The notes beneath the pieces were generated by a model, which did not search any database, was not told the origin of the DNA, and was given only the letters and a program-made list of their open reading frames with translations. Below are positions 12,602-38,998 of a stretch of 64,000 nt of DNA, piece by piece. Source of the stretch: Mosigvirus mar005p1; sequence record OZ035759.1, one strand, 5' to 3'. Position 1 is the first letter of the stretch. Every line of letters begins with the position of its first letter. The position numbers and the translations under genes are program-made.

Positions 12602-12659
12602 GTTTTACCTCCAGTAGTTGATAGGTCTATAATAACATAACCATAGACCTTGTAAACAA

Positions 12660-14086: not shown

Positions 14087-14140
14087 TTCGTTTCGATAGG
14101 TCTATAATAACATATCCTAAAAGCATGTACACTACTTTTT

Positions 14141-14180
14141 AAAAATATTTTAACCCCCTAAAGGGACCCGAAGGTCCCCA
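14141..14180 (-). terminator. hairpin (GGGACC-CGAA-GGTCCC) downstream of secreted-protein gene
   Basis: 6-bp GC stem with CGAA loop plus adjacent CCC/GGG pairing; U-tract interrupted. Confidence 0.4.
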
Positions 14181-14183
14181 CAT

Positions 14184-14465
14184 TTACTTATCGCACTTAG
14201 CAACATAATTAGGCATATCACAGAATACAGAGCGAGTAACTACTCGGCCCTTTGACCATGCTTCAGTTGCTTGTCCGGCCGTGCTATTAATATAGCTTGA
14301 TTTGATATTCTCAATACCCTGAGAATGTGATGCATTTACCGAACCATTGGAAGGCCCAGAAGACTGGTTACCACCAGCTCCTGCACTACCGCCGCCTGGA
14401 CCTGTGGTAGCACCAACAGAGAATGCCATCATTACTGCGAATAAACCAATTACTAATTTTTTCAT
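14184..14465 (-). CDS. secreted Gly/Ser-rich small protein (93 aa)
   Basis: Signal peptide MKKLVIGLFAVMMAFSVGA, then GPGGGSAGAGGNQSSGPSNGS, two C-terminal Cys; late-type TATAAATA upstream; hairpin downstream. Confidence 0.6.
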   Translation of the reverse strand: MKKLVIGLFAVMMAFSVGATTGPGGGSAGAGGNQSSGPSNGSVNASHSQGIENIKSSYINSTAGQATEAWSKGRVVTRSVFCDMPNYVAKCDK

Positions 14466-14496
14466 ATTTACCTCAAGTTAAGGGTTATTTATCTAT

Positions 14497-15486
14497 TTAT
14501 TTATAGTAAGAATTATGATTTTCGAGATAGACTTGCTCAAGGAAATCATCCCAGAAACTCATATCTACTTTTTGTTGCATACCGTTCTTAGCGGCTTGTT
14601 CTGACGCATGTTCAACTTGGTCAACGATATCTTCTAGGAATTCTTGTACAGTTTTAAACGTATGTTTACCAAGCTTAACATCGAGAATAAATGGAGCATC
14701 CTGAAGTGGGTAAACCAGGTCGCCGGTTTTGTAAATTTCCAATAATTGAAGTCCACCACGACATGCATGACTCAATGCTTTCCAGTCAATACCTTCGTTA
14801 GCTTCTGCCTTACGAGCACGTTCACCGTAGTTCTCTTCCAGTTTAACCAGGATGGCATTGAACTCTTTATTGGTTAACGTGTCTTGGAATTTACGGTCTA
14901 ACAGATTATAGAATGTTTGCTTACCTGTTTTCTCGTTTTCGGTTTCAACCCACGAAGCAAATTCACCTACAGGCAGAACATTCTTCATATGTGATAAACG
15001 AATTACTGCACCATTATCAAAGTATTGTCCCCATTCATTAGAACGTTTAAGGGCTTGTCGAAGAACAGCCAGTCGAGAGCCCTTGACACCGTATTTGGAA
15101 GCTTGCTTACGGACATACCCTAAATAAGATTTCATGTTAGTGGTATAGAAACGAGACCTGTTATCTTGAATATACTTCCACACGACAGGCAAATCAGATT
15201 TAACTACTAGACTTGGTGGAGTGTGAAGCATATCTAATGCGACGGTTTCACCATCCGCAGCTAGTTTAAAGAAATATTTGAGACTATACAACTCATGGTC
15301 CACGTCGTCTTTTGTGTTCTTAGAAGATGTGTTATTCGTGTTCTTGCTCATGTGTTCTTTAACGTTACCGGTCAAGATATCACGAGCATGAGGGACATAA
15401 ATTTCTTTAAAATCGACGTCAGATTCAGGAGTAGACGTTCCATAAAGGTGGCTACCAAAGTAAGTTTTCACAATTGTTTTCATCAT
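14497..15486 (-). CDS. predicted nucleotidyltransferase (Pol-beta superfamily motif), 329 aa
   Basis: N-terminal GSHLYGTSTPESDVDF matches the hG[GS]x(9-13)DhD nucleotidyltransferase signature; family not resolvable by eye. Confidence 0.6.
   Translation of the reverse strand: MMKTIVKTYFGSHLYGTSTPESDVDFKEIYVPHARDILTGNVKEHMSKNTNNTSSKNTKDDVDHELYSLKYFFKLAADGETVALDMLHTPPSLVVKSDLPVVWKYIQDNRSRFYTTNMKSYLGYVRKQASKYGVKGSRLAVLRQALKRSNEWGQYFDNGAVIRLSHMKNVLPVGEFASWVETENEKTGKQTFYNLLDRKFQDTLTNKEFNAILVKLEENYGERARKAEANEGIDWKALSHACRGGLQLLEIYKTGDLVYPLQDAPFILDVKLGKHTFKTVQEFLEDIVDQVEHASEQAAKNGMQQKVDMSFWDDFLEQVYLENHNSYYK
14498..14505 (-). promoter_or_regulatory. late-type promoter (TATAAATA) upstream of secreted Gly/Ser-rich protein gene
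   Basis: Exact consensus on minus strand about 33 nt upstream of the ATG at 14465. Confidence 0.5.
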
Positions 15487-16740: not shown

Positions 16741-16777
16741 TAGGACTACTATAACATAGTCCTACCAAGATGTAAAC
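16741..16777 (-). promoter_or_regulatory. early promoter with perfect palindrome TAGGACTA-N8-TAGTCCTA over the -10
   Basis: Minus strand GTTTAC-N18-TATAGT; one of four near-identical copies. Confidence 0.6.
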
Positions 16778-17271: not shown

Positions 17272-17574
17272 TTAGATAGATGTAGGCTCTAATTTTATTT
17301 TCATGAACTCGGCAAATTGTCTGGCAGTTTTTATGCCTTGTTCATGACATTCAAATGCATCATCACAGGGGCTATTTTTGTAATGCTTTGCCATATACTT
17401 ATAGAATTTTTCAGAATTCTCGACATTTTGAATTTCAAACAAAGTATATACGTTTTTAATCCCTGATTCCATAAAGTTATCAAAATATGGGTCGATATAT
17501 GCAGTACCAACGATAGGAGTTGTTGCTGCAAAAAACCCCAGCATCGCCATGACAGCTATCGCTCTTAAGGCCAT
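17272..17574 (-). CDS. rI: RI antiholin (lysis inhibition)
   Basis: 100 aa; N-terminal signal-anchor MALRAIAVMAMLGFFAA and strong match to recalled T4 RI (DPYFDNFMESGI..NSPCDD.FEC). Confidence 0.85.
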   Translation of the reverse strand: MALRAIAVMAMLGFFAATTPIVGTAYIDPYFDNFMESGIKNVYTLFEIQNVENSEKFYKYMAKHYKNSPCDDAFECHEQGIKTARQFAEFMKIKLEPTSI

Positions 17575-17586
17575 ATAGGCCTCCTG

Positions 17587-17799
17587 TTAATTTTGGCCAG
17601 TATTTATTTTTCGCCTTTGGACGGCCTTAACATCTGTGAGGTATTTTTCCAGCTTGCGCTTGCGTGTATAATCAGCTTTAGAACCAGTTTGACGGATATC
17701 CTCGTTTAAATGAGAAATAGAATGTCCTAATTCTCTTCGGATTTCATCCAATTGGGTTACAGTAAGATTACGAAGTTGTCTTTCGTTTAATTGCTGCAT
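17587..17799 (-). CDS. hypothetical protein (70 aa), rI.1 position
   Basis: ORF between rI and tk. Confidence 0.5.
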
Positions 17800-17826
17800 A
17801 TATACCTCTTGGTTAGATATTAGTAT

Positions 17827-18408
17827 TTATAACAACCCTGTCAAATCGTTCCAATGCTTCCGGCATAATGACACATATCTATCGGTATCACCAATTTCAA
17901 TTTGACTGCCATCTGTAATTGGAAGTCCATCTTCCGTGACTCTAGCTACCATTGTGGCCTTTTTACCGCAATGACAGACACCTTTAAGTTCAACAAGCTT
18001 ATCGGCAATAGCCATTAATGCTTGAGAACCTTCAAATAGATTACCTTTAAAATCTGTTCGTAGTCCATATGCCATTACCGGCACATTGTATACGTCAACA
18101 ATACGACTAAGTTGATACACCTTTTCAGTAGTTAAGAACTGAGCTTCATCAACAAATACACAGTGAATATCCTTTTGTGCTGCAGCCCATTTATAGAATT
18201 CAAAGATATCCATGTCTTTTGTAATTATATTGGCATCCTGACGAATACCAATACGAGAGACTATTTCACCTTTTGAATCGCGAGTATCAATAGCCGGTTT
18301 AAGAACTAATACACCCATGCCACGTTCTTTATAGTTATGTGCGGCAGTAAGTAATGAAGCGGACTTACCAGCGTTCATAGCGGCATAGGTAAAAATTAAA
18401 CTAGCCAT
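17827..18408 (-). CDS. tk: thymidine kinase
   Basis: 193 aa; P-loop AMNAGKS; Zn-ribbon cysteines (CHCGKKAT..LCRKHW). Confidence 0.9.
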   Translation of the reverse strand: MASLIFTYAAMNAGKSASLLTAAHNYKERGMGVLVLKPAIDTRDSKGEIVSRIGIRQDANIITKDMDIFEFYKWAAAQKDIHCVFVDEAQFLTTEKVYQLSRIVDVYNVPVMAYGLRTDFKGNLFEGSQALMAIADKLVELKGVCHCGKKATMVARVTEDGLPITDGSQIEIGDTDRYVSLCRKHWNDLTGLL

Positions 18409-38975: not shown

Positions 38976-38983
38976 TATAAATA
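38976..38983 (+). promoter_or_regulatory. late promoter (TATAAATA) for gene 53
   Basis: Exact consensus on plus strand about 43 nt upstream of the gene 53 start. Confidence 0.5.
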
Positions 38984-38990
38984 GTATTAT

Positions 38991-38998
38991 TATTTATA
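38991..38998 (-). promoter_or_regulatory. late promoter (TATAAATA) for genes 4-2-3
   Basis: Exact consensus on minus strand about 27 nt upstream of the gene 4 ATG; divergent with the gene 53 promoter. Confidence 0.55.

What the first reader, a model, noticed from the sequence alone, without database searches (positions are those of the whole stretch)
14184..14505. Late-promoter-driven secreted Gly/Ser-rich mini-protein inside the early-gene block
A 93-aa ORF has a canonical Sec signal peptide (MKKLVIGLFAVMMAFSVGA), a flexible Gly/Ser/Asn-rich segment and a C-terminal pair of cysteines. Unlike its neighbours it is preceded by an exact T4 late promoter (TATAAATA, minus strand 14498-14505) and followed by a GC hairpin. 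A late, periplasm-targeted small protein could act in superinfection exclusion, lysis timing or envelope modification.
Basis: seen in the sequence. Interest (0 to 1): 0.45.

Follow-up and report, generated by a model that had tools for sequence, protein, structure and literature searches.

The report
Small exported phage accessory protein gene
This is a real gene for a small protein that a T4-like phage exports into the host cell envelope; related phages keep the same gene next to their receptor-binding tail genes, so it probably blocks competing phages, but this has not been tested.

Summary
Window 14184-14465 (-) encodes a 93-aa protein with a Sec-type signal peptide, a Gly/Ser/Asn-rich linker and a conserved C-terminal domain with two cysteines. 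An exact TATAAATA lies 32 nt upstream and a GC hairpin lies downstream.

The window is from a Mosigvirus (T4-like). The gene sits between the nrdC.11 and nrdC.10 homologs. It is under purifying selection (dN/dS 0.09-0.19).

It is an accessory gene: about 94 public phage records carry it and about 65 Mosigvirus records lack it, as does T4. It is deposited everywhere as "hypothetical protein". One GenBank record already marks the late promoter and the terminator.

The new result is that it belongs to PHROG 2243 (function unknown). In seven of seven siphophage contexts examined, including prophage Gifsy-2, members lie directly beside the gpJ or tail-fibre genes. That is where receptor-masking superinfection-exclusion lipoproteins (Cor, Llp, Rtp45) are encoded. 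This family has no lipobox.

The "late-driven" claim is only partly supported. Seven of the eight promoter bases are the Tyr-Lys-stop codons of nrdC.11, Gapriverviruses use a middle-type promoter instead, and no terminator separates the ORF from nrdC.11, so early read-through is also expected. Function remains inferred.

The parts
14184..14465 (-). Coding sequence of the 93-aa exported protein (PHROG 2243 member); the stop codon is 14184-14186
   Evidence: ORF; phrog_2243, E 1.7e-37, full length; dN/dS 0.09-0.19; homologs in Mosigvirus and Gaprivervirus.
14409..14465 (-). Signal peptide, residues 1-19. It has an MKK n-region, the h-region LVIGLFAVMMAFSV, and the site V-G-A|T. There is no lipobox cysteine.
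   Evidence: Read directly from the sequence. The same architecture holds in all 24 aligned family members: net +1 to +3 n-region, 14-29 residues free of charged or strongly polar residues (in the Mosigvirus proteins this run extends into the Gly/Ala linker), and a small-x-small site in most. SignalP was not available.
14352..14408 (-). Gly/Ser/Asn/Pro-rich variable linker, residues 20-38
   Evidence: Length varies by in-frame indels among Mosigvirus copies, which range from 86 to 93 aa. One database variant, P0016, has this stretch read in another frame while the downstream frame is kept. AlphaFold pLDDT is below 50 here.
14187..14351 (-). Conserved mature domain, residues 39-93. It carries the IEN..Y..T.G....W.KGR motif and the C82...C91 pair, a likely periplasmic disulfide.
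   Evidence: Invariant and near-invariant columns. The only moderately confident AlphaFold element is a helix hairpin at residues 51-71.
14471..14474 (-). Shine-Dalgarno GAGG, 5 nt upstream of the ATG
   Evidence: conserved in all Mosigvirus loci read.
14498..14505 (-). Exact T4-type late-promoter motif TATAAATA, overlapping the Tyr-Lys-stop codons of the NrdC.11 homolog
   Evidence: Present in 8/8 ORF-bearing Mosigvirus loci, including one with a 4-nt deletion. ORF-less relatives have TATAAATG. Annotated as a late promoter by the depositors of OL960576.
14162..14179 (-). GC-rich hairpin (7-bp stem, UUCG loop) with a short U tract; the transcription terminator of the unit
   Evidence: The homologous hairpin is annotated as a rho-independent terminator in OL960576. 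The same element follows nrdC.11 directly in T4 and in ORF-less Mosigviruses.
14104..14131 (-). Early-promoter-like sequence (TGTACA-N16-TATTAT) for the NrdC.10 homolog. Together with the hairpin it forms a terminator/early-promoter (PeSL-type) module.
   Evidence: (scan). PeSL modules in T4-like hyperplastic regions are described in PMC2839356 and PMC4122927.
14497..15486 (-). Upstream gene, the NrdC.11 homolog (nucleotidyltransferase). There is no terminator between it and the small ORF.
   Evidence: phrog_388; Pfam RlaP; T4 nrdC.11, 78% identity.
16748..16777 (-). Early-promoter-like GTTTAC-N18-TATAGT embedded in a hairpin; the probable start of the early unit that reads through to the small ORF
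   Evidence: Read by eye. At roughly this position in OL960576 the depositors annotate a terminator followed by a T4 middle-type promoter. The early-promoter reading is my inference and is not mapped.

Best explanation
The ORF is a real accessory gene of a Mosigvirus (T4-like phage).

Product (inferred from sequence). The precursor is exported by the Sec pathway and cut by signal peptidase I after Ala19. This releases a roughly 74-residue soluble periplasmic protein. It has a flexible Gly/Ser/Asn-rich N-terminal tail and a small conserved domain closed by a Cys82-Cys91 disulfide.

Family (shown). It belongs to the uncharacterised family PHROG 2243. In siphophages, members are self-contained promoter-gene-terminator cassettes wedged against the gpJ central tail-fibre or side-fibre genes.

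Transcription (inferred). The gene is the last cistron of an early/middle unit that ends at the hairpin at 14162-14179, so it is made from early times. The TATAAATA at 14498-14505 adds gp55-dependent late transcription. The protein would then be present throughout infection and boosted late.

Function (inferred by position and analogy only). It most likely acts in the envelope to exclude superinfecting or competing phages, or to stop progeny from adsorbing to infected cells and debris. It would do so by binding an outer-membrane receptor or another envelope component from the periplasmic side. This is the way Llp, Cor and Rtp45 work, but here without a lipid anchor.
For: Real gene: dN/dS is 0.09-0.19 at dS above 1, and indels are in frame. 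It has a good Shine-Dalgarno.

Export: all 24 aligned family members, and the Gifsy-2 copy by inspection, have a positive n-region, a hydrophobic h-region (14-29 residues free of charged or strongly polar residues) and, in most, a small-x-small cleavage motif, although the residues themselves diverge. Two C-terminal cysteines are present in nearly all members.

Family membership: phrog_2243 E 1.7e-37 for the window protein, 8.4e-41 for Gifsy-2 STM1049.2n, and 8.5e-12 for a Klebsiella Webervirus protein. hhalign probabilities are 96% and 94%.

Family size: a profile search of 1.84 billion representatives found only about 14 true clusters, all 71-112 aa (most 71-91 aa); the full-length ones share the same architecture.

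Position: 7 of 7 siphophage contexts place the gene directly beside gpJ-type tail-tip or tail-fibre genes. The two loci read in detail have their own promoter-like sequence and a terminator shared with the convergent J gene.

Precedent: small exclusion proteins encoded next to the receptor-binding gene bind the periplasmic face of the receptor (PMC12685063, PMC9586334, bioRxiv 10.64898/2026.04.02.716166).

Late promoter: the octamer is exact and lies 32 nt from the ATG, and 9 of 11 TATAAATA in the window are in such upstream positions. It is present in 8/8 ORF-bearing Mosigvirus loci, while all ORF-less relatives read have TATAAATG.

Early read-through: the 31-nt spacer after nrdC.11 holds no hairpin, and the unit's terminator lies after the ORF.
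Against: - No experiment or RNA data supports any step.
- SignalP and DeepTMHMM were not run.
- In this phage the gene is not near the tail-fibre genes, so the guilt-by-position argument is borrowed from distant relatives (33-38% identity).
- All characterised exclusion proteins at the gpJ locus are lipoproteins. This family has no lipobox and no detectable similarity to T1 Cor or to any solved structure.
- AlphaFold gave only low-confidence models (pLDDT 53 and 58), so there is no fold evidence.
- Seven of the eight promoter bases are forced by the Tyr-Lys-stop codons of nrdC.11, and Gaprivervirus orthologs have a middle-type promoter instead.
- Many Salmonella prophage copies are frameshifted, which suggests the gene is dispensable there.
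Confidence: 0.45

Rival explanations
1. The gene is the same exported protein but an ordinary early/middle gene. The TATAAATA is an incidental by-product of the Tyr-Lys-TAA ending of nrdC.11 and contributes little or nothing to expression.
For: - T4, JS98-like phages and ORF-less Mosigviruses have TATAAAT at the same place with no ORF behind it.
- Two of the three stop codons would complete the octamer.
- Gaprivervirus orthologs use a MotA-box middle-type promoter and lack TATAAATA.
- The whole-window count of the motif is not above shuffles.
- There is no terminator between nrdC.11 and the ORF.
Against: - By established knowledge of T4 late transcription (gp55 recognition of TATAAATA, Geiduschek/Kassavetis work; recalled, not re-checked here), the octamer alone is enough for promoter recognition.
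- Nine of 11 octamers in the window are in promoter-like positions.
- Every ORF-less relative read has G at position 8 and every ORF-bearing Mosigvirus has A, including a variant that has a 4-nt deletion and a TAG stop but keeps the octamer.
Confidence: 0.3
2. The periplasmic protein serves lysis control or self-protection rather than receptor masking. For example, it could inhibit a lysozyme or the puncturing device of incoming phage as T4 Spackle does, or modulate the holin as the T4 RI antiholin does.
For: - It is a small protein carrying an N-terminal Sec-type export signal in a T-even phage, as T4 Spackle and RI are from my recollection of T4 biology (not re-checked here).
- It lies in the same early block as the rI homolog, which also has a TATAAATA upstream (17824-17831).
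- Combined early and late expression would suit such roles.
Against: - Pfam, PHROG and NCBIfam scans returned only phrog_2243 and sub-threshold noise, so there is no similarity to any annotated family.
- The phage already has its own rI homolog.
- The family's tight linkage to gpJ and tail-fibre genes in siphophages points to receptor and adsorption biology, not to the lysis cassettes.
Confidence: 0.13
3. It is a host-directed lysogenic-conversion factor (a virulence or fitness moron, like Lom or Bor) that T4-like phages picked up passively and that has no role in lytic infection.
For: - It is found in Salmonella prophages of the Gifsy-2 type, in the moron slot between J and stf.
- It is organised as a promoter-gene-terminator cassette.
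- It is an accessory gene within Mosigvirus, present or absent between close relatives.
Against: - It is under strong purifying selection in strictly virulent Mosigvirus and Gaprivervirus phages.
- It is also carried by virulent T1-like Klebsiella phages.
- In the T4-like phages the sequences upstream of it match phage-specific promoter types (late-type in Mosigvirus, middle-type in Gaprivervirus).
- Many prophage copies are frameshifted.
Confidence: 0.07
4. The ORF is not expressed as a protein, or the N-terminus is an uncleaved membrane anchor rather than a signal peptide.
For: No proteomic or experimental evidence was found. The structure model is of low confidence.
Against: dN/dS is 0.09-0.19. 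The architecture is conserved across about 14 divergent clusters. The h-region is about 14 residues, which is short for a stable transmembrane helix, and a small-x-small site follows it in most members.
Confidence: 0.05

Closest known systems
PHROG 2243 (function unknown), including Gifsy-2 STM1049.2n, VR7ORF099c and JS09_085
   Same: It matches the family profile over its full length (E 1.7e-37). It shares the family architecture: signal peptide, G/S/N-rich stretch, IEN..Y..T.G...W.KGR motif and two C-terminal cysteines.
   Different: The T4-like copies carry an extra roughly 10-residue insert (SVNASHSQG) before the IEN motif and a longer linker. They sit in the early nrdC hyperplastic region, not beside tail-fibre genes.
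Receptor-masking superinfection-exclusion lipoproteins Llp (T5), Cor (T1, phi80, N15) and Rtp45 (Rtp)
   Same: Similarities:
- They are small (6-8 kDa mature) exported phage proteins with a disulfide (a Cys30-Cys38 bond is documented for Rtp45).
- In siphophages this family occupies the same kind of genomic slot, next to the receptor-binding tail genes (PMC12685063 and PMC9586334).
- Llp and Rtp45 have been shown to bind the periplasmic face of the receptor and so prevent adsorption.
   Different: This family has no lipobox cysteine, so it would be a soluble periplasmic protein and not anchored in the outer membrane. It has no detectable sequence similarity to T1 Cor or to any PDB chain. No exclusion phenotype has been shown for any member.
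T4 periplasmic accessory proteins Spackle (sp) and RI (rI)
   Same: They are small proteins of T-even phages that act in the periplasm and are encoded among early genes. The rI homolog in this window also has a TATAAATA upstream.
   Different: There is no sequence relationship: family scans returned nothing else. T4 itself has no homolog at this locus, and no T4 record was among the 102 significant tblastn matches in the phage collection (E limit 0.01).
PeSL (promoter-early stem-loop) cassettes of T4-like hyperplastic regions
   Same: The ORF sits immediately upstream of a hairpin plus early-promoter module. It is present or absent between very close relatives, with the breakpoints at that module and at the nrdC.11 stop codon (PMC2839356 and PMC4122927).
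   Different: PeSLs are regulatory and recombination modules, not proteins. They explain how the gene moves, not what it does.
Pfam PF13985, YbgS-like protein (E. coli periplasmic Gly/Ser/Asn-rich protein)
   Same: It has a signal peptide followed by a low-complexity Gly/Ser/Asn-rich region. There is a weak hit, E 0.052.
   Different: The score is 14.2 bits against a gathering threshold of 27. The match covers only the signal peptide and linker, so the similarity is compositional.

Membership tests
PHROG 2243 | Significant full-length match to the family profile | tested here: met
   E 1.7e-37, residues 1-93 against profile positions 2-87 of 87. Gifsy-2 and Webervirus members hit the same PHROG.
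PHROG 2243 | Shared architecture: cleavable signal peptide, G/S/N-rich stretch, IEN...Y..T.G motif and a C-terminal Cys pair | tested here: met
   Alignments A2, A3 and A5 and the per-sequence feature table.
T4-type late promoter | Exact TATAAATA on the coding strand | tested here: met
   14498-14505 (-).
T4-type late promoter | Placed a few tens of nucleotides upstream of a start codon with a Shine-Dalgarno | tested here: met
   It lies 32 nt from the ATG. Nine of 11 octamers in the window lie 24-114 nt upstream of ORF starts.
T4-type late promoter | Conserved with the gene across relatives, beyond what coding constraint explains | tested here: inconclusive
   It is present in 8/8 ORF-bearing Mosigviruses, and position 8 is G in all ORF-less relatives read. 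However, 7 of 8 bases are Tyr-Lys-stop codons, the A/G difference coincides with the indel boundary, and Gaprivervirus orthologs lack the motif.
T4-type late promoter | gp55/gp33/gp45-dependent transcript 5' end appearing late in infection | not testable with these tools
   No RNA data were available. A literature search found no Mosigvirus transcriptome.
Sec (SPase I) signal peptide | Positive n-region, hydrophobic h-region of 7-15 residues or more, and small residues at -3 and -1 | tested here: met
   MKK / LVIGLFAVMMAFSV / V-G-A|T. The same pattern holds across the family.
Sec (SPase I) signal peptide | Prediction by a dedicated tool (SignalP, DeepTMHMM), or experimental processing | not testable with these tools
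   No such predictor was available.
Lipoprotein exclusion proteins (Cor, Llp, Rtp45) | Lipobox with an invariant Cys at +1 of the mature protein | tested here: not met
   The window protein has no Cys in or right after its signal peptide. The few Cys in other members' h-regions are not at the predicted cleavage site. T1 Cor has LTGC.
Lipoprotein exclusion proteins (Cor, Llp, Rtp45) | Sequence or profile similarity to a characterised member | tested here: not met
   hhalign against T1 Cor gave 7% probability, covering the signal-peptide start only. The profile search of PDB sequences returned only two chains, a lectin and a beta-propeller protein, at E up to 10. I did not check that Llp and Rtp45 chains are in that PDB copy.
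Lipoprotein exclusion proteins (Cor, Llp, Rtp45) | Encoded adjacent to the receptor-binding tail gene | tested here: inconclusive
   Met for siphophage relatives in 7/7 contexts. Not met in this window or in Gapriverviruses, where the gene lies in the nrdC region.
Lipoprotein exclusion proteins (Cor, Llp, Rtp45) | Expression blocks adsorption or infection by phages that use the cognate receptor | not testable with these tools
   This needs plating and adsorption assays.
Pfam PF13985 YbgS-like | Score at or above the gathering threshold | tested here: not met
   14.2 bits against 27.
PeSL-flanked hyperplastic-region cassette | Hairpin plus early promoter at the border, and presence/absence polymorphism among close relatives | tested here: met
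   Hairpin at 14162-14179 plus promoter-like site at 14104-14131. About 94 records carry the ORF-bearing junction and about 65 the ORF-less junction.

The most novel reading that the evidence does not exclude
PHROG 2243 would be a new class of phage superinfection-exclusion or receptor-masking factor that is soluble and not a lipoprotein. It would be shared by siphophages (next to gpJ) and T4-like myophages. Its Gly/Ser/Asn-rich tail and disulfide-closed domain would engage an outer-membrane protein from the periplasm.

The target could be a general porin. All 14 receptor-typed Mosigviruses use OmpC or OmpF, and Gifsy-2 uses OmpC.

In Mosigviruses a late promoter would time the protein to protect progeny from adsorbing to debris.
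Probability: 0.2. Interest if true: 0.65.

Novelty: new member of a known kind. Interest (0 to 1): 0.36.

Why it matters
If the function is right, this would be the first exclusion or receptor-masking protein from the gpJ-adjacent slot that is not a lipoprotein. It would also be the first one shared between lambda-like or T1-like siphophages and T4-like myophages.

That would bear on predicting phage-phage interference in therapeutic cocktails, because many Mosigviruses are therapy candidates. It would also help in annotating a recurrent "hypothetical protein".

The case also shows a simple evolutionary point. One cassette has upstream sequences matching three different promoter classes (sigma-70-like in siphophages, MotA-box middle-type in Gapriverviruses, late TATAAATA in Mosigviruses) as it moved between phage types.

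As it stands the gene is an already deposited, uncharacterised accessory gene, so the finding is of moderate interest.

Tried and rejected
1. Structure route. Two AlphaFold2 runs with family alignments of 17 and 24 sequences gave mean pLDDT 53 and 58. I therefore ran no fold search, because the matches would be meaningless.

2. Solved-structure sequences. The family profile against PDB gave only a repeat-summed hit to the BP39L beta-propeller lectin (E 6e-5, no single stretch significant) and one noise hit. I treat both as spurious. The repetitive proteins P0072, P0074 and P0075 are the same kind of artefact.

3. Curated libraries. Pfam, NCBIfam and PADLOC returned nothing above threshold.

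4. Cor hypothesis. T1 Cor was fetched and compared. It is a lipoprotein and unrelated.

5. Porin hypothesis. Mosigviruses all use OmpC or OmpF whether or not they carry the ORF; RB69, for example, lacks it and uses OmpF. The data therefore cannot discriminate. The OmpC-dependent Webervirus GH-K3 has no family member in the 18-kb tail-fibre region I searched. The hypothesis is unsupported but not excluded.

6. Shared receptor-binding domain. Comparison of the gpJ C-termini next to family members shows only general J homology, with at least two different extreme C-terminal types. This is uninformative.

7. Paralogs. A profile search of the six-frame translation of the window found only the ORF itself.

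8. Transcriptomics. A literature search found no Mosigvirus transcriptome or TSS mapping.
Full report
**What is at the coordinates.** On the minus strand, 14465..14184 is a 93-codon ORF (MKKLVIGLFAVMMAFSVGATTGPGGGSAGAGGNQSSGPSNGSVNASHSQGIENIKSSYINSTAGQATEAWSKGRVVTRSVFCDMPNYVAKCDK). A GAGG lies 5 nt before the ATG. TATAAATA lies at 14505..14498, 32 nt before the ATG. It overlaps the last codons (TAC TAT AAA TAA) of the upstream 329-aa gene. Four nucleotides after the stop there is a GGGGACC-UUCG-GGUCCC(U) hairpin at 14179..14162 with a short U tract. It is followed by an early-promoter-like TGTACA-N16-TATTAT (14131..14104) in front of the next gene.

**Genomic setting.** The 2.6 kb around the ORF is 98% identical to many Escherichia and Shigella phages of the genus Mosigvirus (Straboviridae, Tevenvirinae).
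- The upstream gene is the NrdC.11 homolog (nucleotidyltransferase: phrog_388, Pfam RlaP).
- The downstream gene is the NrdC.10 homolog, a P-loop protein.
- In T4 the two genes are adjacent. nrdC.11 ends TAT TAT AAA TGA and is followed at once by a hairpin terminator and an early promoter, with no ORF between them.
- In GenBank OL960576 (vB_EcoM_SA79RD) the homolog is "hypothetical protein SA79RD_095". The depositors already annotated a "TATAAATA T4-late promoter" before it and a rho-independent terminator after it.

**It is a real gene.** tblastn finds it in 102 phage records at E up to 0.01. The copies fall into three groups:
- Mosigviruses at about 94-98% identity (93-aa type).
- Mosigviruses at about 76-81% identity by tblastn, where gaps count, with a shorter linker (86-89 aa).
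- The Gapriverviruses VR7 and VR25 plus the unclassified phage 212, which groups with them, at about 54-65%.

Nei-Gojobori dN/dS between Mosigvirus and Gaprivervirus copies is 0.09-0.19 at dS 1.3-2.2. It is 0.19 in the C-terminal domain. All length differences are in-frame indels in the Gly-rich linker.

**Export signal.** Residues 1-19 have a +2 n-region (MKK), a 14-residue hydrophobic core and V-G-A|T. There is no cysteine, so there is no lipobox. Across 24 aligned family members, the positive n-region and the hydrophobic run (14-29 residues free of charged or strongly polar residues) recur in every one. A small-x-small site (AFA|A, AHA|D, LAA|K and similar) recurs in most, although the residues are not conserved; the Gifsy-2 copy has AVA|D. 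Two cysteines 8-15 residues apart near the C-terminus are almost universal. This pattern is what a cleaved Sec signal and a periplasmic disulfide predict. A dedicated predictor could not be run.

**Family and distribution (the main new result).**
- The protein matches PHROG 2243 ("unknown function") over its full length (E 1.7e-37).
- A weak tblastn hit led to Gifsy-2 STM1049.2n, an 80-aa protein encoded between gpJ and stf. Another led to 90-aa proteins of T1-like Klebsiella phages (Webervirus), encoded next to tail-fibre genes.
- Both fall in the same PHROG (E 8.4e-41 and 8.5e-12). They align to the Mosigvirus profile with 96% and 94% hhalign probability.
- A profile search of the 5.8-billion-protein collection found 63 clusters, all unnamed or "hypothetical".
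- An exhaustive HMMER search of 1.84 billion representatives found only 17 hits. About 14 are true members, 71-112 aa long; the full-length ones share the architecture.
- Many Salmonella prophage copies are frameshifted after the KG motif.

**Where relatives sit.** In every siphophage context with enough flanking DNA, the gene lies directly against the receptor-recognition genes:

| Member | Neighbours |
|---|---|
| Gifsy-2 STM1049.2n | between J and stf |
| Klebsiella phage PMBT64 | convergent with two tail-fibre genes |
| P0064 | between a Phage_Tail_Tip gpJ-type protein and a Gp53-like fibre plus Caudo_TAP |
| P0069 | between a J-like protein and a Peptidase_S74 fibre, in a T1-like genome |
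| P0065, P0068, P0073 | 28-42 nt from the 3' end of gpJ, convergent |

Two such loci read in detail have their own sigma-70-like promoter region and a bidirectional terminator shared with J. This is the classical promoter-gene-terminator "moron" layout.

This slot is where siphophages encode the small exclusion proteins Cor, Llp and Rtp45. Llp and Rtp45 have been shown to bind the periplasmic face of the phage's own receptor (FhuA, LptD) and so abolish adsorption (PMC9586334, PMC12685063, bioRxiv 10.64898/2026.04.02.716166). Those proteins are lipoproteins. T1 Cor has LTGC and shows no relationship to this family. The family profile hits nothing relevant in PDB sequences.

I therefore propose that the family works like these proteins. 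It is not a member of their families.

**Transcription.**

For a functional late promoter:
- The octamer is exact.
- Nine of the 11 octamers in the window lie 24-114 nt upstream of an ORF start on the same strand. These include sites before the tail sheath, tube and portal genes and before the rI.1/rI homologs. Only two are buried in genes. The whole-window count (11 against 8.5 expected) would not predict such placement.
- All eight ORF-bearing Mosigvirus loci read keep the octamer. This includes phiEC1, where a 4-nt deletion changes the stop to TAG yet preserves TATAAATA.
- All ORF-less relatives read (four Mosigviruses, T4-type and JS98-type phages) have TATAAATG.

Against its being a dedicated element:
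- TATAAAT is simply Tyr-Lys plus the T of the stop codon.
- The A/G difference coincides with the boundary of the insertion or deletion.
- The Gaprivervirus orthologs sit behind another small ORF. They carry TGCTTCA-N12-TATAGT (TATAAT in phage 212), a good match to the T4 MotA-dependent middle promoter, and no TATAAATA.

In addition, nothing terminates transcription between nrdC.11 and the ORF. The unit appears to start at an early-promoter-like site near 16777-16748 and ends at the hairpin after the ORF. The most economical reading is expression from early times by read-through, with additional late transcription from the octamer. The rI homolog in this same window shows the same combination of an early-block location and an upstream octamer.

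**Mobility.** Within Mosigvirus the gene is accessory. A 171-nt probe across the ORF-bearing junction finds 94 records with at least 80% coverage. The ORF-less junction finds 65. In ORF-less genomes a different small ORF follows the hairpin and early-promoter module. This matches the PeSL-mediated shuffling described for T4-like hyperplastic regions (PMC2839356, PMC4122927).

**Structure.** AlphaFold2 with 17- and 24-sequence alignments gave pLDDT 53 and 58. Only a helix hairpin at residues 51-71 reached about 72-78. I ran no fold search.

**Attempts to tie the family to a receptor.**
- All 14 receptor-typed Mosigviruses use OmpC or OmpF.
- Bas47 AlbertHofmann carries the ORF and uses OmpF.
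- Gifsy-2 uses OmpC (Ho and Slauch 2001, cited in PMC12312913).
- RB69, however, uses OmpF and has a different ORF at this site.
- The OmpC-dependent Webervirus GH-K3 has no family member in the 18-kb tail-fibre region searched.
- The gpJ C-termini beside family members are not of one type.

A porin link is therefore only a speculation.

**Verdict.** The gene is an already deposited, uncharacterised accessory gene. What this analysis adds is its membership of a narrow exported-protein family that siphophages keep next to gpJ. That placement makes envelope-level exclusion the best working hypothesis, at roughly 35-40% for the function itself. Confidence that the gene is real and its product exported is about 85-90%.

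Noticed in passing
window 17824-17831 (-), with ORFs 17799..17587 and 17574..17272 (-): A second exact TATAAATA in the early block lies 24 nt upstream of a 70-aa ORF. That ORF is followed by a 100-aa ORF starting MALRAIAVMAMLGFF..., which looks like the T4 rI.1 and rI (antiholin) homologs. This is another periplasm-acting gene with a late promoter inside the early region.
   Followed up: partly
window 38976-38983 (+) and 38991-38998 (-): Two exact TATAAATA octamers lie back to back on opposite strands, 8 nt apart, each facing an ORF. This looks like a divergent pair of late promoters.
   Followed up: no
window 12629-12656 (-), 14104-14131 (-) and about 16748-16777 (-): Terminator-hairpin plus early-promoter modules recur (the first two sites share ...GT(G/T)TACA...TATGTTATTATAGACCTATC). 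They resemble the PeSL elements proposed to shuffle genes in T4-like hyperplastic regions.
   Followed up: partly
L006 3488-3630; L051-L053 (ORF-less Mosigviruses): Mosigviruses that lack the small ORF carry a different small ORF (starting MKTKMLEMIRE...) after the hairpin and early promoter. The site is therefore a replacement polymorphism, not a simple indel.
   Followed up: no
L003 2198-2422 and L004 2063-2287 (Gapriverviruses VR25, VR7): A 74-aa ORF overlaps the end of nrdC.11 and precedes the homolog. Its translation begins within the nrdC.11 3' end. Several other T4-like loci (L012-L014, L018, L020, L027) have a similar sequence after nrdC.11.
   Followed up: no
Proteins P0038, P0042, P0048, P0051-P0059, P0061 (Salmonella prophage copies): Many Salmonella copies of the family are frameshifted after the KG motif and lose the Cys-pair C-terminus. 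This suggests frequent decay of the gene in prophages.
   Followed up: no
Protein P0016 (Mosigvirus variant): A variant reads the linker in another frame (GDWLPPAPAPSNG) and returns to frame before the conserved domain. The linker sequence therefore seems to be under little constraint.
   Followed up: no
L054 2849-3164 (Klebsiella phage GH-K3): A 316-nt unannotated gap lies between the depolymerase gene and the J-like tail-fibre gene. It holds two hairpin terminators but no family member, so the slot is empty in this Webervirus.
   Followed up: partly
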